Source: Selenomonadales bacterium UBA7018
Lineage (GTDB): Bacteria > Bacillota > Negativicutes > Selenomonadales > Selenomonadaceae
Length of the DNA: 64,000 bases
Direction of reading: 5' to 3'
Assembly: GCA_002448305.1 (NCBI GenBank)
Contig: DJWY01000035.1
Location: forward strand, 2,982-66,981
The first letter of the stretch is position 1. Each line of letters begins with the position of its first letter. Both the position numbers and the translations under genes were made by a program. The notes under the pieces are model-generated. The model was not told where the DNA came from and did not search any database. It saw nothing but the letters and a program-made list of their open reading frames with translations. Positions 28,497-64,000 of the stretch are shown here, piece by piece.

Positions 28497-28882
28497 GGAG
28501 TGGAAAAATTTTGTATGAATTGACGGTTCGTTCGGCATTTGAGGCGGCGCATTTCATTGACGGTTATGCCGGAAAATGTTCGCGCTTGCACGGGCATAAT
28601 TGGATAATTGAAGCGGTCGTGCGCGGCGAAGAATTAGACAATCTCGGAATGCTGATTGATTTTAAAATTTTGAAGGCGGAACTTAACAAAGTTCTTGAGG
28701 AGTTTGACCACCGCTTTTTGAATGAACTAAAAGTTTTTGCGGAAGAGAATCCGACGGCGGAAAATCTTGCGCGGAAGATTTATAATAAACTTGCGGGGGC
28801 GGAAATTTTCAGCGGCGCGACGAAACTTTATGCCGTGAAAGTTTTTGAAAGCCCTAATTCATGCGTGACGTATTATGAGTAA
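28493..28882 (+). CDS. queD: 6-carboxy-5,6,7,8-tetrahydropterin synthase QueD
   Basis: Contains FEAAHFI...CSRLHGHNW and FDHRFLN. The start may be TTG 28511, after GAGGAG. Confidence 0.88.
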   Translation: MRSGKILYELTVRSAFEAAHFIDGYAGKCSRLHGHNWIIEAVVRGEELDNLGMLIDFKILKAELNKVLEEFDHRFLNELKVFAEENPTAENLARKIYNKLAGAEIFSGATKLYAVKVFESPNSCVTYYE

Positions 28883-29612
28883 AGCGAATGTTATAGAAAT
28901 TTTTTCGTCAGTGCAGGGCGAAGGGAAATATTTAGGTTGCCGACAAATTTTCGTGCGCCTTGCCGATTGCAACTTAAATTGCGCCTATTGCGATACGAAT
29001 TTTATCCGCGCAGATTTTTGCAAGGTCGAAACGGTCGCGGGCGCAATGATTTTCCGCAATGAAAAAAATCCTCTAGACGCCACGCAAGTTGCAGAAATTA
29101 TCAAGCAATTTGCCGACGAAGTGCCGACGCAAGCAATTAGTTTTACGGGCGGCGAACCACTGATTCATTGGCAATTTATTCGCGATGTTGCGAGCGCGGT
29201 AAAAAATTCCGGCGTGAAAATTTTTCTAGAGACGAACGGGACGCTTTACAACGAGTTTGAAAAAATATCGGGCGCGGTCGATATTGTCAGCATGGATATA
29301 AAATTGCCGAGCGTAATCGGACAAAATCTTTTCAGCTTGCACGAAAAATTTTTGCGAGTGGCGCAAGGAAAGGATTTATATGTTAAAATTGTCGTGACGG
29401 GCGAGACAACGCCGGAAGAATTTTTATCGGCAATCGATTTAATTTCACAGGTCGACAAGGAAATTTTATTAATCCTTCAACCTGTGACGCCCGTCGGGAA
29501 AATCTGCGCGGCTTCAGCGGGAAAAATTTTAAACTTACAAACCGCCGCACTCCGTAAATTAAAAAACGTCCGAGTAATTCCACAGACGCATAAATTTATT
29601 AACGTACTTTAG
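28875..29612 (+). CDS. queE: 7-carboxy-7-deazaguanine synthase QueE (radical SAM)
   Basis: Contains EIFSSVQGEG and RLADCNLNCAYCDT. Overlaps the queD stop. Confidence 0.88.
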   Translation: MSKANVIEIFSSVQGEGKYLGCRQIFVRLADCNLNCAYCDTNFIRADFCKVETVAGAMIFRNEKNPLDATQVAEIIKQFADEVPTQAISFTGGEPLIHWQFIRDVASAVKNSGVKIFLETNGTLYNEFEKISGAVDIVSMDIKLPSVIGQNLFSLHEKFLRVAQGKDLYVKIVVTGETTPEEFLSAIDLISQVDKEILLILQPVTPVGKICAASAGKILNLQTAALRKLKNVRVIPQTHKFINVL

Positions 29613-29623
29613 GAGAACTTACA

Positions 29624-30928
29624 ATGAAAAAACATTTCTTCTGCGCGAAAAATATTGAGGATTACCGGAAAGTTTATCGCGAAATTATGGAGAAAGAAAA
29701 ATCCGCCGACGAAACGCAAGAAGATTTTGAGCAGAACTTTTTTCTTAAGCACATAAAAGGTTTATTTAAAGTGCCGCAAGAAGTTTTAGAATCAAGGATT
29801 TATGGCGAGACGGGCATTGAAGGTTTGCGACTGGATTTTAATTTTGGTTTACGACTCGACGTTCCCGAAGGAAATTTTCGCGTTGTGATAAGCGATGCCG
29901 ATACTGGAGAAAAATTTTTCGATAAATACATTTCGGGCGGCAGATTGCTTTCGGTCGAGCAGTATTTTATTCGCTGGCATGTGGAAATTTACCGCGACGA
30001 CAAAAAAATTTTTAATCACACGCTGAATTTGGAAGGGCAATCTGTTCTGCTAGCCTTCAGACTTTGTGGGCTGGGTGATTTGATTGCTTTGTTGCCATTC
30101 GTGCGGGAATTCAAAAAGCGTCACCATTGCGAGTTATCGATTTGCCTGCCCGATTATATGTGCGAATTTGCCGCGCATCTCTATCCTGAAATTTCTCAAG
30201 TCGACAAAATAAATTTTAAAACCTACGCGACCTATTATCCCGTAATGATTATGGCAGATTGTTTGACTGTTCCCGTTGACGCCCGCAATTTACCTTTAGA
30301 GCGTGCGGGCGGCGCGATTTTGGGCTTAGAAACTTTGCCCGCTAAGCCGAAATTTAAACCGACTGCGCCGAAACTTTTTTCCGAGCCTTACGTTTGCATA
30401 GGCGTACAAGCCACGACGCCGCGAAAAGGCTGGCTTTATCCTGGCGGCTGGAAAATTATCGTCGATTATCTGAAAAGTTTGGGCTATCGCGTCTTCTGCA
30501 TTGATAAGAAAAATTTTCAGCAAGAAGGCAAATATTCCGCCGCAATGCCCGATAACGCCGAAGATTTTACCGGCGACTTTTCAATCATGGAGCGGGCGAA
30601 TATGCTTTATCATGCTGATTTTTTTATCGGGCTTTCGAGTGGTCTAGCGTGGCTCGCCGACGCCGTTAATTGTCCGGTCGTAATGATTTGCGGCTTTTCG
30701 CAAGATTGGTTCGAGTTTTACACGCCGTATCGCGTGGCTAATCGGCTCGTCTGCAACGGCTGCTTTAATGATATTCGCGTCAGTTTCATAAAGAAAATTT
30801 GCCCGTATCATAACGGGACAACTCGCGAACTTGAATGCCAGAAGAAAATTTATCCCAGTCAAGTTATTGACGCGATTAATCGTTTGATTGTCGACGAAAA
30901 TTTAACGCCGCCAGTATTGAGGGATTGA
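29624..30928 (+). CDS. TibC/Aah-like protein O-heptosyltransferase (BAHT family), paralogue 1
   Basis: N-terminal block IYGETGIEGLRLDFNFGLRLDVPEGNF. GT9-like GLGDLIALLPF. C-terminal Cys quartet CNGC-x12-C-x11-C, which resembles the TibC iron-finger as I recall it. Confidence 0.7.
   Translation: MKKHFFCAKNIEDYRKVYREIMEKEKSADETQEDFEQNFFLKHIKGLFKVPQEVLESRIYGETGIEGLRLDFNFGLRLDVPEGNFRVVISDADTGEKFFDKYISGGRLLSVEQYFIRWHVEIYRDDKKIFNHTLNLEGQSVLLAFRLCGLGDLIALLPFVREFKKRHHCELSICLPDYMCEFAAHLYPEISQVDKINFKTYATYYPVMIMADCLTVPVDARNLPLERAGGAILGLETLPAKPKFKPTAPKLFSEPYVCIGVQATTPRKGWLYPGGWKIIVDYLKSLGYRVFCIDKKNFQQEGKYSAAMPDNAEDFTGDFSIMERANMLYHADFFIGLSSGLAWLADAVNCPVVMICGFSQDWFEFYTPYRVANRLVCNGCFNDIRVSFIKKICPYHNGTTRELECQKKIYPSQVIDAINRLIVDENLTPPVLRD
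30343..30770 (+). repeat. Direct repeat copy A (3' half of BAHT paralogue 1), near-identical to 31667-32094
   Basis: Aligned by eye at an offset of 1324 nt. There are only scattered substitutions, and 30473-30573 is a perfect 101-nt match to 31797-31897. Confidence 0.85.
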
Positions 30929-30929
30929 A

Positions 30930-32249
30930 ATGAAAAACTTTTACTTTTGCGCACGTGATATTCGCGACTATCTGCGCGGCGTGATGAATACGAGAGAGCT
31001 TGATAATACGCCAAATTTTAAGCCAAATTTCTCTGCTTTAACGGACGCGCCCGCAATACAAGCTTTTCTGTTCGACGTAATGAAAATTTACGAACAGCGA
31101 GAGGAACTTTGCAACGCGCCGATTTATGGCGAAACGGGCATAGACGGCTTGCGGCTGGATTTTAATTTCGGCTTGCGGCTTGACGTGCCCGAAGGAAATT
31201 TTCATGTTCGAATTGGCGACGATAACGGGCAAATTTTCTTCGACAGAGATATTTCCGGCGTGCGCTTGATTTCTGTTGAGAAATATTTTATCCGTTGGCG
31301 CGTGGAAATTTCTTTAGACGGTACAAAAATTTTTAGCCACACGCTTAACCTTGATGGGCAGAAAGTTCTTCTGAACGTCGACAGGAGAAGCGGACTTGGC
31401 GATATTTTAGCTTTCCTGCCGTCGGTTGGGGAATTCAAGCGGAAATTTAATTGCGCGGTTTCAATTTCTCTGCCAGAATATATGCGCGAGTTTGCAGCGA
31501 ATATTTATCCCGAAATTCCGCAGGTCGACGAGATGAGCTTTGACGGCTACGCGATTTATTTTTATAAAATGTACGGCGGCGATTTTCCATTCTGCAAAGT
31601 CGATTTCAGATGTGCGCCGCTTAATCACATGGCAAATTATATCGTCGGGTTAGACGCTTTGCCTATTAAGCCGAAATTCAAACCGACTGCGCCGAAACTT
31701 TTTTCTGAGCCTTACGTTTGCATAGGAATTCAAGCCACGACGCCGCGAAAAGGCTGGCTTTATCCGGACGGCTGGAAAATTATCGTCGATTATCTAAAAA
31801 GTTTGGGCTATCGCGTCTTCTGCATTGATAAGAAAAATTTTCAGCAAGAAGGCAAATATTCCGCCGCAATGCCCGATAACGCCGAAGATTTTACCGGTGA
31901 TTTTTCAATCATGGAGCGGGCGAACATGCTTTATCACGCCGAATTTTTTATCGGCTTGGGCAGCGGGCTTTCATGGCTTGCTGACGCGGTGAATTGTCCA
32001 GTTGTAATGATTTGCGGCTTTTCGCAAGATTGGTTCGAGTTTTACACGCCGTATCGCGTCGTTAATCGGCTTGTCTGCAACGGTTGCTTTAATGATGTTC
32101 GCGCAAATTTTATGTATGACGTTTGCCCGTATCACGGCAGCACAGCTCGCGAACTTGAATGCCAGAAGAAAATTTATCCCAATCAAGTTATCGACGCGAT
32201 TAACCGTTTGATTGCCGATAGGAATTTAATGCCGCCAGTTTTAAAATAA
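30930..32249 (+). CDS. TibC/Aah-like protein O-heptosyltransferase (BAHT family), paralogue 2
   Basis: Same blocks as paralogue 1: IYGETGIDGLRLDFNFGLRLDVPEGNF, GLGDILAFLPS and CNGC-x12-C-x11-C. Starts 1 nt after the paralogue 1 stop. Confidence 0.7.
   Translation: MKNFYFCARDIRDYLRGVMNTRELDNTPNFKPNFSALTDAPAIQAFLFDVMKIYEQREELCNAPIYGETGIDGLRLDFNFGLRLDVPEGNFHVRIGDDNGQIFFDRDISGVRLISVEKYFIRWRVEISLDGTKIFSHTLNLDGQKVLLNVDRRSGLGDILAFLPSVGEFKRKFNCAVSISLPEYMREFAANIYPEIPQVDEMSFDGYAIYFYKMYGGDFPFCKVDFRCAPLNHMANYIVGLDALPIKPKFKPTAPKLFSEPYVCIGIQATTPRKGWLYPDGWKIIVDYLKSLGYRVFCIDKKNFQQEGKYSAAMPDNAEDFTGDFSIMERANMLYHAEFFIGLGSGLSWLADAVNCPVVMICGFSQDWFEFYTPYRVVNRLVCNGCFNDVRANFMYDVCPYHGSTARELECQKKIYPNQVIDAINRLIADRNLMPPVLK
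31667..32094 (+). repeat. Direct repeat copy B (3' half of BAHT paralogue 2)
   Basis: See copy A. The 5' halves of the two genes differ much more, including at synonymous sites. Confidence 0.85.
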
Positions 32250-60533: not shown

Positions 60534-61241
60534 TTAGTAGAAGTCTCTAAGGCGTTCTGCGCCGCTCAATTTCTTTAAGGCATCCGCCTCAATCGAAAGC
60601 AATGATTCAGGGCGCAACTTTAAAATTTTAGAAACTTCTTCTGCTGAATGCGCTCTTCCGCCCGTCAAGCCGAATCTCAATGCCAAAATTTTTTTCTCGG
60701 TCATAGTCAAATGTTTCATTGCTTCGTGCAGTAATTCTGCAAGCTGTTGTCTATCCATGCGCTCGAAATGCGTTGGCGCGTCCATATCGGCGACCAAATC
60801 CATTAGCGTTAAGCCTTCAATGTAATCGCCTTCGATAGCGTATTCATCTTTTGATTCATAAGTTCTTTCGTCTATCGGCGTATCTAAGGAAACTCCCCTA
60901 TCAGCTTGAAGTTCCCGCAAGCCGCGAATGATTGCTTTTTCTATGCATTCTTCCGCGTATTCAATGAAGGTCGGCGAGCCTTTTGTACTGAATTTTTTTA
61001 CTGCCTTCAGAAGCCCGATATTGCCTTCTTGAATCAAGTCAGAGAACGCCGCGCCGCGTCCGATATATTTGCGGGCTATGTCGACGACCAAACGCAAATT
61101 TGCATTGACTAATTCTAGTTGCGCCTCTTCGTCGCCTGCGCCTGCCCGCGTCAATAGCGTATGAAATTCTTGCGCGCTCAATAGCGGGATTTGCTCAACC
61201 TCCTCTAAATATATTTGTACATCTTCCCTCATTGCACTCAC
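60534..61241 (-). CDS. Sigma-70-family RNA polymerase sigma factor, atypical (SigH-like region 2)
   Basis: Region 2.1/2.2 reads NLRLVVDIARKY..DLIQEGNIGLLKAVKKF. Region 4 HTH reads LTMTEKKILALRFGL..HSAEEVSKILKLRPESLLSIEADALKKL. The listed start is GTG 61241; ATG 61232 is an alternative. Confidence 0.8.
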   Translation of the reverse strand: MSAMREDVQIYLEEVEQIPLLSAQEFHTLLTRAGAGDEEAQLELVNANLRLVVDIARKYIGRGAAFSDLIQEGNIGLLKAVKKFSTKGSPTFIEYAEECIEKAIIRGLRELQADRGVSLDTPIDERTYESKDEYAIEGDYIEGLTLMDLVADMDAPTHFERMDRQQLAELLHEAMKHLTMTEKKILALRFGLTGGRAHSAEEVSKILKLRPESLLSIEADALKKLSGAERLRDFY

Positions 61242-61395: not shown

Positions 61396-61424
61396 TTGAC
61401 AAAAATTTTATGCTGCAATATTAT
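61396..61424 (+). promoter_or_regulatory. Near-consensus sigma-70 promoter upstream of the large open-ended ORF
   Basis: TTGACA (61396-61401), 17-nt spacer, TATTAT (61419-61424). It would give a leader of about 320 nt before ATG 61753. Confidence 0.55.
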
Positions 61425-61752
61425 GCGCTTGACAATCAAAAGCGTTTGGTGGACGCTGATTAGTCAGATAGGGGGATTCTCGACTGGAGTTGGGGGACTT
61501 TAAGTCAGGATTAGATTTTTATTCTTTGTGGCGTTAGAATTTACCGCAGGTGAAGTTTGTAAATTCGACGCTTGTTTTAGTTTTATGAACTTTAATTTAC
61601 TAAGTGGTTTTTATTGGGATTCGATTCGCAAGGGGTCAACGCGCAAGATTTATCGCTCAACAATCTGCGCAAGACCTTTAACTAATTCTATCTTTTTCAA
61701 CAAAGGCTCGACTAAAAAATAGCGAGACTTTAGGAAGGGAGTTTTCTCTAAC

Positions 61753-64000
61753 ATGAGCGATTTGTTTAAAACATTTTCTTTCGACCTGCAACGCTTCGCA
61801 GTTGTCATTGAATCAGTAGCAGGACAATCCGGTCTAATCTCAATAGGACTTGATGAAGTTGGCACTTCTTCAACTACTCGTATGTTTAATAATGTTGAAG
61901 AAATTGCTAACGCTGGCGACACTTCTTTTGACGGAAAATATTTCTGGGACACTTCTGCAACAGATTTTGTCAATGGTCTTAGCTTCGCCGGCGAAAGTGG
62001 CGTTCAACTTTCCATTGAGTTTCAAGAATATCAAGTAACGGGCGTCTCGGCGGCGGGCGGCGATTCCAATGCCGTTTACACTTTCCGCAACATAACCGGA
62101 ATCAATACTATCAGCTTTGATGATTCTTACGTAACAGGCGAAGGCTCCGACACAGTATCGCACGAGATAACCTCTAATGGCATTACAGTTGGTAGCGATA
62201 GCTTCTGGAAGGAAGGCGGCAGTTCATTAACCGTTACTTCAGAAATTCCTTTGACGATTAACGGCTCAAAAGCTGGCATTGGTACTTTCGACTTTTCCAC
62301 CCTTAGCGGCGCATCTACTGTCGCACTCGATAGCTTTGTTGTAGATACCGAAAATGCTTCGGTTACCTCAATCAACCTCGACAGCGGCGTTATGTCTACA
62401 GGCGACCTTAAAGTCGGTGCAACCCTTGAGTTAGACCAAGACGCAATGATATGGAATGTAAACTCAAACGGCGTAAGCGGCGTAATGATTGACGACGGCA
62501 CCGGCGCGACGGCTGAACTTTCTGTCAATAAGCCTTTCATCTATGGCTTTTTGGAAGGCACCACAGCACTTGGAGTACTTAGCGCGGCGGAGGGCGCAGT
62601 TGTCAGCGGTTGGGGTCACGCTACGGAAATCATGCCTGCAAATGCACTGTACGAACCCGCAGTCACTGACGGCACAATCACAGTCGGCGGCGTTGCTCTT
62701 GAATATAGCACGAATGTCAAGAGGGCTTCAGCGGCGGCAATTATCGTCGACAGCGAAGCAGGCGTTCAAGGTTTCGAGTTCGCTAACGAAGGCGACAAAA
62801 TTAAATTCCCGGAAAGTTCCACAACTTACGGTATTCAAACTCCAGATGGCGATACCTTTATTGACGGCGATTTAGATTTTGTTGCTTTGTCTAAAGATGG
62901 TTACACTGCAGAATTAACCGACATAAACACGAGCGGTTCCGGTTCAGCTACAACGAATTCTTATGCAATCGATATTACTCCTGTTTCTACTAAGGTCGCA
63001 TTGACTGATAATCTTGCTCTCAACAACACCAGCAATAACCTAAGCGCAGGCGACGTTATCACCATTGACGGCGACGGCGAAATTACTGCTGTTCGCCTTA
63101 CCACAATCGGCGACGCAATTACCGGCGACATTACAGGCATTGGCGGCGAAAGTGCAATCGGACTTTATCTCGGTGAATCTTCAGCGTCTGTCGCCGCAAG
63201 TTTCGAGGGCATTGGCAGTTCTACCGCTACTATCACCTACCAAAGTGATAACGTCCTTAAAGTCAGCGGCTTAGTCGACGATGACGAAATTAGCATAAAC
63301 AATGTTGACTACCTCTTCACAACGGCCGGCAAAAGTTCCGCTGTCTCTTTCAATGCTGACGGTGACGGACTCACCACTATTACTGCCGGTCAAAGCGCAT
63401 CTATTGACGTTTCCGGCTTGAGCACTGCGACTAACAAAAACGTTATCATTAACGACGGAACGATAACTTCAAACCGCGACTTCACCTACGCCAACAACGC
63501 CAGCGACGACAAAGTTATTTCTGTCAATGACAATGTTGAGCTTTCCCAAACTGGCGACGCTAACAGAATATGGCTCGACAGCGATTCCGCTACCGTTCTC
63601 GGCTCGACACTTAGTAACGTTGCTTTCGGCTCTGAATCAAGCGGCTTTATTGTCACAACTAAAACCGATGACGAATTAGCTATTACCGGCGTCATTATGG
63701 AAGATGGCGACAGTTTCACCGCCGATAGAGGCACTGCTGAAGATATTGTTGTAAGTGGTTTTACAAAGCCCGAAATTACCGGCTTTGCTAGTGCGGTTGC
63801 ATTCAATCGCAATAGTATCGAAGAAGACAACAACACTACTACACCCATAATCGAAATCAGCGGCTATTCAACTGGCGCGGTCATTAATGGTGGCGCAAGC
63901 CTTGCAATCACCAATTACGGCACGCGCGACACCGATACAGACGCTCAACTTACTGTTGCTTTCGACGAAGACGGAAATATTACCAATGTCAGCAACACCA
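61753..64000 (+). CDS. Large acidic Gly/Ser/Thr/Asp/Asn-rich beta-type surface/adhesin-like protein, 5' part (open at window end)
   Basis: Absent from the ORF track because no stop occurs within the window. I translated frame 1 by hand from ATG 61753 to 64000 and found no stop over 749 codons. GGAAGGGAG lies at 61733-61741. N-terminus is MSDLFKTFSFDLQRFAVVIESVAGQSG... I saw no Cys codon, and there is no hydrophobic Sec signal. Confidence 0.75.
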   Translation, partial: MSDLFKTFSFDLQRFAVVIESVAGQSGLISIGLDEVGTSSTTRMFNNVEEIANAGDTSFDGKYFWDTSATDFVNGLSFAGESGVQLSIEFQEYQVTGVSAAGGDSNAVYTFRNITGINTISFDDSYVTGEGSDTVSHEITSNGITVGSDSFWKEGGSSLTVTSEIPLTINGSKAGIGTFDFSTLSGASTVALDSFVVDTENASVTSINLDSGVMSTGDLKVGATLELDQDAMIWNVNSNGVSGVMIDDGTGATAELSVNKPFIYGFLEGTTALGVLSAAEGAVVSGWGHATEIMPANALYEPAVTDGTITVGGVALEYSTNVKRASAAAIIVDSEAGVQGFEFANEGDKIKFPESSTTYGIQTPDGDTFIDGDLDFVALSKDGYTAELTDINTSGSGSATTNSYAIDITPVSTKVALTDNLALNNTSNNLSAGDVITIDGDGEITAVRLTTIGDAITGDITGIGGESAIGLYLGESSASVAASFEGIGSSTATITYQSDNVLKVSGLVDDDEISINNVDYLFTTAGKSSAVSFNADGDGLTTITAGQSASIDVSGLSTATNKNVIINDGTITSNRDFTYANNASDDKVISVNDNVELSQTGDANRIWLDSDSATVLGSTLSNVAFGSESSGFIVTTKTDDELAITGVIMEDGDSFTADRGTAEDIVVSGFTKPEITGFASAVAFNRNSIEEDNNTTTPIIEISGYSTGAVINGGASLAITNYGTRDTDTDAQLTVAFDEDGNITNVSNT

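What the first reader, a model, noticed from the sequence alone, without database searches (positions are those of the whole stretch)
61753..61803. N-terminus of the large ORF ends in an L27/Prp-type cleavage motif (FDLQRF|A) instead of a signal peptide
Seen in sequence: the ORF begins MSDLFKTFSFDLQRFAVVIESV. It has no basic or hydrophobic Sec signal, lipobox or Tat motif.

Established knowledge: in Firmicutes and a few other phyla, ribosomal protein L27 is made with a short N-terminal extension ending (N/D)-L-Q-x-F-A. The cysteine protease Prp removes it by cutting after the Phe. Staphylococcal phage 80alpha capsid and scaffold proteins carry the same motif and are cut by the host Prp.

Inference: [F]-D-L-Q-R-F-A at residues 10-16 fits that motif in both sequence and distance from the Met. 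A giant non-phage, surface-type protein carrying it would be an unreported class of Prp substrate, or of a Prp-like maturation or export tag.
Basis: partly seen in the sequence, partly recalled or inferred. Interest (0 to 1): 0.7.

Follow-up and report, generated by a model that had tools for sequence, protein, structure and literature searches.

The report
L27-type Prp leader on RTX protein
A large calcium-binding (RTX-type) protein of a rumen Selenomonadaceae bacterium starts with a 15-residue tag almost identical to the one this bacterial family puts on ribosomal protein L27 and that its phages put on virion proteins, which makes it a strong, testable candidate for a new cellular substrate of the protease Prp.

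Summary
The ORF starts at 61753 with MSDLFKTFSFDLQRF|AVVIESV, and no other start codon is possible.

- **Conservation.** M-S-D-L-x-K-x-F-x-F-D-L-Q-R-F is invariant in all 8 distinct homologous N-termini found. Conservation collapses right after Phe15, where residue 16 is A, D, N or V.
- **Modularity.** The next gene downstream carries the same F-x-F-D-L-Q-R-F near its N-terminus. Its N-terminal region is otherwise unrelated, but its C-terminal RTX region is homologous (59% identity).
- **Organism.** It is a rumen Selenomonadaceae, a diderm Firmicute. L27 genes of this family, each preceded by prp, begin M(x)FxFDLQ(L/R)F|AHKK. One of them (MEFKFDLQRFAHKK) lies in the same metagenome assembly as the window.
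- **Phages.** Prophage tail tube, major tail, tail fibre, scaffold and capsid proteins of Selenomonas and Megasphaera carry the same N-terminal motif, followed by A or G.
- **No Sec signal.** The likely reason is that this is an RTX protein, which is typically exported through a C-terminal signal.

My best reading is an L27-type propeptide cut by host Prp after Phe15 (confidence 0.6). Cleavage itself is untested, and the variable residue 16 in relatives argues for caution. I found no report of such a substrate, so I file it as a new member of a known kind.

The parts
61396..61424 (+). Promoter-like site TTGACA-17-TATTAT, about 330 nt upstream of the ORF
   Evidence: 11 of 12 consensus matches. 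This is a consensus match only; the region gives about as many matches as its shuffles do.
61733..61741 (+). Shine-Dalgarno sequence GGAAGGGAG, 11 nt before the ATG
   Evidence: Read from the sequence.
61753..61797 (+). Predicted propeptide Met1-Phe15 (MSDLFKTFSFDLQRF), the L27-type leader
   Evidence: M1, S2, D3, L4, K6, F8, F10, D11, L12, Q13, R14 and F15 are invariant in 8 distinct family N-termini.
61774..61800 (+). Core recognition motif, P8 to P1': F-S-F-D-L-Q-R-F|A. The predicted scissile bond lies between codons 15 and 16 (61797|61798).
   Evidence: - 8 of 9 positions match the L27 leader FKFDLQRF|A of Selenomonadaceae.
- The same motif sits at the N-termini of prophage virion proteins of Selenomonas and Megasphaera.
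- It fits the published motif MLxx(D/N)LQ(F/L)F'A(S/H)KK (PMC9405229).
61798..64000 (+). Start of the predicted mature chain: a Gly/Ser/Thr/Asp-rich, beta-strand-rich N-terminal region with no family match. The ORF continues beyond the window through a (DSDA)n repeat and a C-terminal region of about 740 aa with RTX repeats. The total is at least about 1760 aa.
   Evidence: - One search gives the translation.
- Searches give no Pfam or PHROG hit.
- One search gives the AlphaFold2 model: beta strands, mean pLDDT 55.
- Searches give the continuation on scaffold L001 and the HemolysinCabind hit (29.5 bits against a cutoff of 23).

Best explanation
Residues 1-15 are an L27-type N-terminal propeptide. 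The protein is made in the cytoplasm with this leader. The host cysteine protease Prp, the enzyme that matures ribosomal protein bL27, recognises positions P8 to P1 (F8-x-F10-D-L-Q-R-F15) and cuts after Phe15, so the mature chain starts at Ala16.

The rest of the protein is a large RTX-type protein: a variable N-terminal region, an acidic (DSDA)n spacer and a conserved C-terminal calcium-binding RTX region. It most likely leaves this diderm Firmicute through a C-terminal, type I style signal, which explains the missing Sec signal.

**Shown:** motif identity with the family's own L27 leader and with local prophage virion proteins; presence of prp in the family and in the same assembly; family-wide conservation; the RTX region.

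**Inferred:** the cleavage itself, its timing, the export route, and what the leader is for. My guess is a transient N-terminal cap on subunits that assemble outside the cytoplasm, as on the phage proteins.
For: 1. **Conservation.** The motif and its position are invariant in 8 distinct homologous N-termini. Conservation is 100% at 12 of the first 15 positions and drops to 25-60% immediately after Phe15. That is the pattern of a site read on its non-primed side.
2. **Modularity.**
   - The downstream neighbour shares only F-x-F-D-L-Q-R-F with the giant ORF in its N-terminal part.
   - The two C-terminal regions are 59% identical.
   - Complete relatives P0221, P0222 and P0225 have different N-terminal regions, yet all carry the motif 28-31 residues from Met.
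3. **L27 leaders.**
   - The variants with Arg at P2 are named L27 of uncultured Anaerovibrio or Selenomonadaceae.
   - These sit in rplU-prp-rpmA-obg operons with a Pfam Peptidase_Prp hit.
4. **Organism.**
   - The window organism is Selenomonadaceae, because its spermidine synthase falls in a 90% cluster named so.
   - The same assembly, ERZ28612955, holds prp plus L27 MEFKFDLQRFAHKK.
   - A related MAG, whose spermidine synthase is 87% identical, has the same L27. I infer this from co-occurrence in two samples and nearby accession numbers.
5. **Prp active site.** Selenomonadaceae Prp keeps G21-H22, G29, D31, C34 and S38 at the S. aureus positions (sequence; residues named in PMC9405229).
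6. **Phage proteins.** The same leader, followed by A or G, heads prophage tail tube (Selenomonas sp. oral taxon 136), scaffold (Megasphaera elsdenii), capsid, major tail and J-like tail fibre proteins. This parallels the Prp-cut capsid and scaffold proteins of phage 80alpha (PMC5744158).
7. **Hydrophobic positions.** F at P8 and P6 correspond to the two Leu of the L27 leader (ML-x-L-D/N-LQ) that pack into the Prp dimer interface.
Against: - No cleavage data exist for this protein or for any Selenomonadaceae Prp.
- P1' is A in only 5 of 13 distinct cellular leaders. The rest are D (5), N, V and T. L27 and the phage proteins have A or G almost without exception, and the S. aureus Prp structure shows a size-limited P1' pocket.
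- If cleavage mattered, P1' should be constrained.
- Prp specificity is narrow and species-specific: C. difficile Prp does not cut the S. aureus peptide.
- The L27 and prp of the very genome that holds the window were not seen on one contig with it.
- No purpose for removing 15 residues from an RTX protein is known.
Confidence: 0.6

Rival explanations
1. The leader is a recognition or binding tag that mimics the L27 leader but is not, or not always, cleaved. It would recruit Prp or another reader of the motif as a holdase or checkpoint. It might hold the N-terminus of a protein that is exported C-terminus first, or it might compete with pre-L27 for Prp. In this reading the conserved part is the binding side (P8 to P1), and the residue after Phe is free to vary.
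For: - P1' is D, N, V or T in 8 of 13 cellular leaders while P8 to P1 is invariant.
- The cleaved leader peptide acts as a competitive inhibitor of S. aureus Prp, which binds its substrate tightly (Km 3.4 uM).
- Catalytically dead pneumococcal Prp stays bound to L27 (PMC12324487).
- The longer leaders of the neighbour-type family have further conserved residues upstream (M-x-E-E-K-L...E-x-G-G-[ED]-N). These have no counterpart in L27.
Against: - The window protein itself has the canonical Ala at P1'.
- Wild-type Prp cuts fast and releases its product.
- No example of a non-cleaved Prp ligand is known.
- Tolerance of P1' by Selenomonadaceae Prp is simply unknown.
Confidence: 0.2
2. The leader is cut, or read, by another enzyme or by an export component rather than Prp. 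Candidates are a dedicated protease, a broad-specificity protease like the pneumococcal Rrp, or part of the secretion machinery. It would then act as an N-terminal export or sorting signal that only resembles the L27 leader.
For: - A second, unrelated protease (Rrp, an Ntn hydrolase) can process L27 in S. pneumoniae TIGR4 (10.64898/2026.08.10.744006).
- The protein has no other recognisable N-terminal signal.
- The neighbour-type leaders contain a conserved Gly-Gly. Export ABC transporters with a peptidase domain use Gly-Gly as a cleavage site (my own knowledge).
Against: - The match to the family's own L27 leader is 8 of 9 positions, including the rare Arg at P2.
- Cytoplasmic L27 and phage virion proteins carry the same motif, so it is not an export signal in those proteins.
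- No protease or transporter gene lies within 10 kb on either side.
- The window protein's leader has no Gly-Gly.
- Another RTX protein of the lineage has no leader.
Confidence: 0.1
3. The motif is an inert relic. The 5' end of the gene would have been captured from a prophage structural gene, or copied between the two neighbouring genes, and the leader would have no present function.
For: - The motif is common on prophage virion proteins of the same bacterial group, including large tail-fibre proteins.
- The two leader-bearing genes are adjacent.
Against: - The leader is strictly conserved across homologues that are only 41-67% identical elsewhere.
- It is also conserved across family members with unrelated N-terminal regions. 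Together these indicate purifying selection.
- The proteins have no PHROG hits, and there are no phage genes nearby.
Confidence: 0.05

Closest known systems
[quoted passage not shown]
   Same: - N-terminal position.
- The pattern hydrophobic-x-hydrophobic-(D/N)-L-Q-x-F followed by Ala.
- 8 of 9 positions match the L27 leader of the same bacterial family.
   Different: - The carrier is a protein of more than 1700 aa with RTX repeats, not a 9 kDa ribosomal protein.
- P1' is not fixed as Ala in relatives.
- Nothing after the cut resembles AHKKG.
- Cleavage has not been shown.
Capsid and scaffolding proteins of Staphylococcus phage 80alpha, cut by host Prp (PMC5744158)
   Same: A non-ribosomal protein borrows the host's L27 leader. 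Here, prophages of Selenomonas and Megasphaera use exactly F-x-F-D-L-Q-R-F-[AG].
   Different: - The window gene is chromosomal, sits among housekeeping genes and has no phage homology.
- P1' is more variable than in the phage proteins.
N-terminus of the flagellar export protein FlhB in Bacillus subtilis, proposed (not shown) as a further Prp substrate (PMC9405229)
   Same: A cellular, non-ribosomal protein with the L27 cleavage motif at its N-terminus, identified by sequence only.
   Different: FlhB is an inner-membrane export-gate component. The protein here is a large, soluble, RTX-type and probably extracellular protein.
RTX proteins exported by type I secretion, including LapA-type adhesins whose N-terminus is cut by the periplasmic protease LapG (my own knowledge)
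   Same: - A large, repeat-rich protein without a Sec signal.
- C-terminal RTX nonapeptide repeats.
- An N-terminal processing site.
   Different: - LapG cuts at a di-alanine about 100 residues in, in the periplasm, to release the adhesin.
- Here the site is an L27-type motif at residue 15, and the candidate protease is cytoplasmic.
- No transporter genes are adjacent.

Membership tests
L27-type propeptide / Prp substrate | The motif lies at the extreme N-terminus, with P1 Phe roughly 9-30 residues from Met | tested here: met
   P1 is residue 15. In L27 of the family it is residue 9-11, in prophage proteins 10-27, and in related RTX proteins 28-31.
L27-type propeptide / Prp substrate | Sequence hydrophobic-x-hydrophobic-(D/N)-L-Q-x-F on the non-primed side (published: MLxx(D/N)LQ(F/L)F') | tested here: met
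   F8-S-F10-D-L-Q-R-F15. It is invariant in all family members. The motif is taken from PMC9405229.
L27-type propeptide / Prp substrate | A small residue (A, S or G) at P1' | tested here: inconclusive
   The window protein has Ala16. Relatives have A (5), D (5), N, V and T. L27 and the phage proteins have A or G.
L27-type propeptide / Prp substrate | The host encodes Prp and a long L27 | tested here: met
   - Shown at family level: rplU-prp-rpmA with Pfam Peptidase_Prp in Selenomonadaceae/Anaerovibrio contigs.
- Shown in the same metagenome assembly as the window.
- Neither gene lies in the window, so the link to this exact genome is inferred.
L27-type propeptide / Prp substrate | Cleavage after the P1 Phe by Prp | not testable with these tools
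   This needs N-terminal sequencing or an in vitro assay.
RTX protein / type I secretion substrate | Calcium-binding nonapeptide (GGxGxDxUx) repeats towards the C-terminus | tested here: met
   Pfam HemolysinCabind scores 29.5 bits against a cutoff of 23 on the C-terminal part, which lies outside the window on L001. The same family is recorded for relatives.
RTX protein / type I secretion substrate | No N-terminal Sec, Tat or lipoprotein signal | tested here: met
   Read from the sequence. No dedicated signal-peptide predictor was available.
RTX protein / type I secretion substrate | ABC transporter, membrane fusion protein or TolC genes nearby (usual but not obligatory) | tested here: not met
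   Only housekeeping genes lie within 10 kb on either side.
RTX protein / type I secretion substrate | A host with an outer membrane | not tested
   The organism is assigned to Selenomonadaceae. That Negativicutes are diderm is established knowledge and was not tested here.
Phage virion protein / prophage remnant | Homology to phage structural families, or phage genes nearby | tested here: not met
   The N-terminal part, the C-terminal part and the neighbour give no PHROG hit. The flanks are sigma factor, sepF and polyamine genes on one side and glyA, prmC, coaBC, rpoZ and gmk on the other.
Double-glycine leader (substrate of a peptidase-containing ABC exporter) | A leader ending in Gly-Gly, with an exporter that carries a C39 peptidase domain | tested here: not met
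   There is no Gly-Gly in residues 1-23 of the window protein. A conserved Gly-Gly exists only in the longer leaders of the neighbour-type family. No exporter gene is nearby.

The most novel reading that the evidence does not exclude
In Negativicutes the L27 leader may be a general maturation tag for subunits that assemble outside the cytoplasm, namely RTX-type surface proteins and every class of phage virion protein. Prp would then be a hub that links ribosome maturation to envelope and virion assembly. Leaders with D, N, V or T after the Phe could be slow or non-cleavable ligands that tune Prp availability, or that hold the N-terminus until export.
Probability: 0.15. Interest if true: 0.85.

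Novelty: new member of a known kind. Interest (0 to 1): 0.62.

Why it matters
Whether Prp has cellular substrates other than L27 is stated as open in the most recent work (PMC12324487). The only earlier suggestion is FlhB, by sequence alone (PMC9405229).

This case offers a family of chromosomal proteins whose leader copies the L27 leader of their own lineage, down to the rare Arg at P2. It also provides natural variants at P1' that would map the enzyme's primed-side tolerance.

It bears on three things:
- Prp as an antibiotic target, because there may be more substrates and more phenotypes.
- Why Firmicutes keep the L27 extension at all.
- How diderm Firmicutes mature large surface proteins.

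The test is simple: co-express a leader-reporter fusion with the cognate Prp in E. coli, which has no Prp.

Tried and rejected
- **L27, L21 and Prp in the window.** tblastn found none.
- **Family searches on the N-terminal 749 aa and on the neighbour.** Pfam and PHROG gave no hits.
- **Genome-collection scan with the family alignment.** It returned one spurious 54-residue match in a Sec-signal protein of a Spirochaetaceae MAG.
- **tblastn of three leader-bearing prophage proteins against GenBank phages.** The scaffold gave no match. Homologues of the tail tube and capsid in Fusobacterium, Paenibacillus and Bacillus phages looked as if they aligned from the N-terminus but carry no leader. This gave no information on hosts.
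- **Profile search of 1.84 billion representatives with the 36-column leader profile.** It found only further fragments of the same family, not a census of the motif.
- **Low-stringency motif census in the 5.8-billion-protein set.** This was not possible because the E-value limit is 10. A local calibration showed that canonical leaders would score E of about 0.2-0.5. I spent the last search on the C-terminal RTX region instead, which was productive.
- **Structure.** The AlphaFold2 model of residues 1-749 has mean pLDDT 55, and residues 1-190 are below 50. Foldseek against the PDB gave no match with E of 0.001 or better. Structure therefore says nothing about the leader.
- **The 2468-aa RTX gene beside rplU-prp-rpmA.** I considered it as a possible functional link. 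It has no leader, so the adjacency looks coincidental.
Full report
**1. The observation**

The ATG at 61753 opens an ORF that reads MSDLFKTFSFDLQRFAVVIESVAGQSG... and runs off the window at 64000. An in-frame stop lies ten codons upstream with no alternative start in between, and a GGAAGGGAG ribosome-binding site lies 11 nt before the ATG. Met1 is therefore secure. The N-terminus has no Sec, Tat or lipoprotein features. A six-frame scan of the window for [DN]LQxF near the start of long ORFs finds only this gene.

**2. The whole gene and its setting**

The window is identical, over the 12.2 kb compared, to part of a 74.6 kb scaffold from a sheep-rumen metagenome assembly, ENA ERZ28612955. On that scaffold the ORF has this layout:
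- About 982 residues, ending in a (DSDA)n repeat where the assembly has a gap.
- After the gap, a further 777 residues that end in RTX calcium-binding repeats (Pfam HemolysinCabind, 29.5 bits against a cutoff of 23).
- A total of at least about 1760 aa.

Upstream, and divergent, lie a sigma-70 family gene, sepF, an Orn/Lys/Arg decarboxylase gene and spermidine synthase. Downstream lies a second large gene. After that come only housekeeping genes: glyA, prmC, coaBC, rpoZ, gmk and dapF. No phage genes, protease genes or transporter genes lie within 10 kb. Neither large protein hits any phage protein family.

**3. The motif is conserved and modular**

All homologues of the N-terminal region are metagenomic fragments, 41-67% identical overall. 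They keep M-S-D-L-x-K-x-F-x-F-D-L-Q-R-F without exception. The next residue is A, D, N or V, and conservation falls to 25-60% from there on.

The downstream neighbour starts MSEEKLVTFEETGGENKLNSFVFDLQRFD.... BLASTP finds nothing in common between the two N-terminal regions except F-x-F-D-L-Q-R-F. Their C-terminal RTX regions, by contrast, are 59% identical.

Complete members of this C-terminal family have yet other N-terminal regions, and each starts with the same leader:
- P0221, 1214 aa, ...FVFDLQLF|AG.
- P0222, 788 aa, ...LIFDLQRF|T.
- P0225, 833 aa, ...FVFDLQRF|D.

The motif is therefore a portable N-terminal module on a family of RTX proteins. It is neither part of a folded domain nor a chance match.

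**4. The organism and its L27**

The window's spermidine synthase falls in a 90%-identity cluster whose named members are from Selenomonadaceae MAGs. The organism is thus a rumen member of the Negativicutes, the Firmicutes with an outer membrane.

Every one is the start of rpmA. Most read MFxFDLQLF|A[SH]KK. Three read M(ID/E)FKFDLQRF|AHKK.

- The Arg variants are named L27 of uncultured Anaerovibrio sp. (WP_294521228.1) and of Selenomonadaceae MAGs.
- They lie in rplU-prp-rpmA-obg operons with a Pfam Peptidase_Prp hit.
- One such prp-rpmA pair is in the same assembly as the window (scaffold_230348).
- A MAG whose spermidine synthase is 87% identical to the window's appears to carry the same L27. 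I infer this from co-occurrence in two samples and from nearby accession numbers.
- The Prp of these contigs keeps G21-H22, G29, D31, C34 and S38, the residues that form the S. aureus active site and substrate cradle (PMC9405229).

The giant protein's F-S-F-D-L-Q-R-F-A thus matches its own lineage's L27 leader, F-K-F-D-L-Q-R-F-A, at 8 of 9 positions. The match includes Arg at P2, where the published consensus has F or L. F at P8 and P6 takes the place of the two Leu that pack into the Prp dimer interface in the S. aureus complex.

**5. Phages of the same hosts use the same leader**

A scan of viral contigs for F-x-F-D-L-Q-R-F gave 71 loci. In about 40 of them the motif lies within 30 residues of the start of an ORF of 180-1140 aa and is followed by A or G.

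These proteins are scaffold, major capsid, P2-type tail tube, major tail and J-like tail-fibre proteins. The named ones are a tail tube protein of Selenomonas sp. oral taxon 136 and a DUF4355 scaffold protein of Megasphaera elsdenii. The Leu-at-P2 form is used in the same way.

This mirrors phage 80alpha, whose capsid and scaffold proteins are cut by host Prp (PMC5744158). It also shows that the exact motif of the window protein is a working N-terminal tag in this bacterial group.

**6. Most likely mechanism**

The protein is made with a 15-residue L27-type propeptide. Cytoplasmic Prp binds P8 to P1 and cuts after Phe15. The mature chain, starting at Ala16, is exported by way of its C-terminal RTX region, and the repeats fold on binding calcium outside the cell.

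The sequence relationships are shown. The cleavage, the export route and the purpose of the leader are inferred.

The main reason for caution is P1'. Only 5 of 13 distinct cellular leaders have Ala. The others have D, N, V or T. L27 and the phage proteins are almost always A or G, and the S. aureus structure shows little room at P1'. There are two ways to read this. Selenomonadaceae Prp may be tolerant on the primed side. Alternatively, some leaders are bound but cut poorly, which is the main rival reading.

An export-signal reading is unlikely for three reasons:
- The same motif sits on cytoplasmic L27.
- Another RTX protein of the lineage, 2468 aa long, has no leader.
- No exporter gene is nearby.

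An inert relic is unlikely given the strict conservation.

**7. Comparison with what is known, and novelty**

The kind of element, an L27-type leader read by Prp, is known for L27 and for 80alpha capsid and scaffold proteins. It has been proposed from sequence for FlhB (PMC9405229).

Recent work states that it is unclear whether Prp has other substrates, and that no convincing matches exist in S. pneumoniae (PMC12324487). A second, unrelated L27-processing protease has since been found. In the papers I could search, nothing links this leader to RTX or other large surface proteins, or to Negativicutes.

I therefore class the finding as a new member of a known kind. It is a well-supported candidate for a new class of cellular Prp substrate, with an unusual relaxed P1'. 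It can be tested directly with a leader-reporter fusion and the cognate Prp.

**8. Limits**

- The family was not found in any of the genome collection's species representatives, and every member comes from a metagenomic contig.
- The gene is interrupted by an assembly gap.
- The link between the window and a particular prp-rpmA locus rests on taxonomy and on a shared assembly, not on one contig.
- The structure prediction was uninformative.

Noticed in passing
window 29624-30928 and 30930-32249 (+ strand), next to a radical-SAM gene at 28875-29612: Two tandem genes with the TibC N-terminal domain plus a GT9 heptosyltransferase domain. In Proteobacteria this type of enzyme glycosylates autotransporter adhesins in the cytoplasm. 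They could modify the Ser/Thr-rich RTX proteins 30 kb away.
   Followed up: no
L001 598-2818 (- strand), continued at L212 1-669 and L215 10001-12262; just beyond the window end: A second large gene directly downstream starts MSEEKLVTFEETGGENKLNSFVFDLQRFD. It has its own (DSDA)n repeat and an RTX C-terminal region 59% identical to that of the giant ORF, but an unrelated N-terminal region.
   Followed up: yes
P0005, P0221, P0222, P0225 and the L001 neighbour, residues 1-31: The longer leaders of the neighbour-type family share extra conserved residues upstream of the Prp-type motif (M-x-E-E-K-L-x3-[EQ]-E-x-G-G-[ED]-N), including an invariant Gly-Gly. Its role is unknown. It has no counterpart in L27 or in the window protein.
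   Followed up: partly
viral loci L008, L018, L028, L051, L058, L063 and others: In prophages of Negativicutes the L27-type leader heads many virion protein classes: P2-type tail tube, major tail protein, J-like tail fibres up to 1138 aa, scaffold and capsid. In the papers I read, only the capsid and scaffold proteins of phage 80alpha are described as Prp substrates.
   Followed up: partly
L216 1-3060 (- strand), divergent from rplU-prp-rpmA at L216 3351-4297: A 2468-aa RTX protein gene sits next to the L21-Prp-L27 operon of an Arg-type Selenomonadaceae genome. It starts MTPQEVIKKF... with no leader, so the adjacency looks coincidental, and not all RTX proteins of the lineage are tagged.
   Followed up: yes
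L001 5642-5741 and 498-597; ends of L003, L004, L005 and L213: Every assembly of this locus breaks, or has a run of N, inside the (DSDA)n repeats. The true lengths of both proteins are therefore unknown, and gene callers split them into pieces.
   Followed up: partly
F-x-F at P8 and P6 is thus a widespread alternative to the L-x-L of the published consensus.
   Followed up: partly
window 61396-61424 (+ strand): A near-consensus sigma-70 promoter-like site (TTGACA-17-TATTAT) lies about 330 nt upstream of the ORF, which implies a long 5' leader. A divergent sigma-70 family gene lies at 60534-61241.
   Followed up: no
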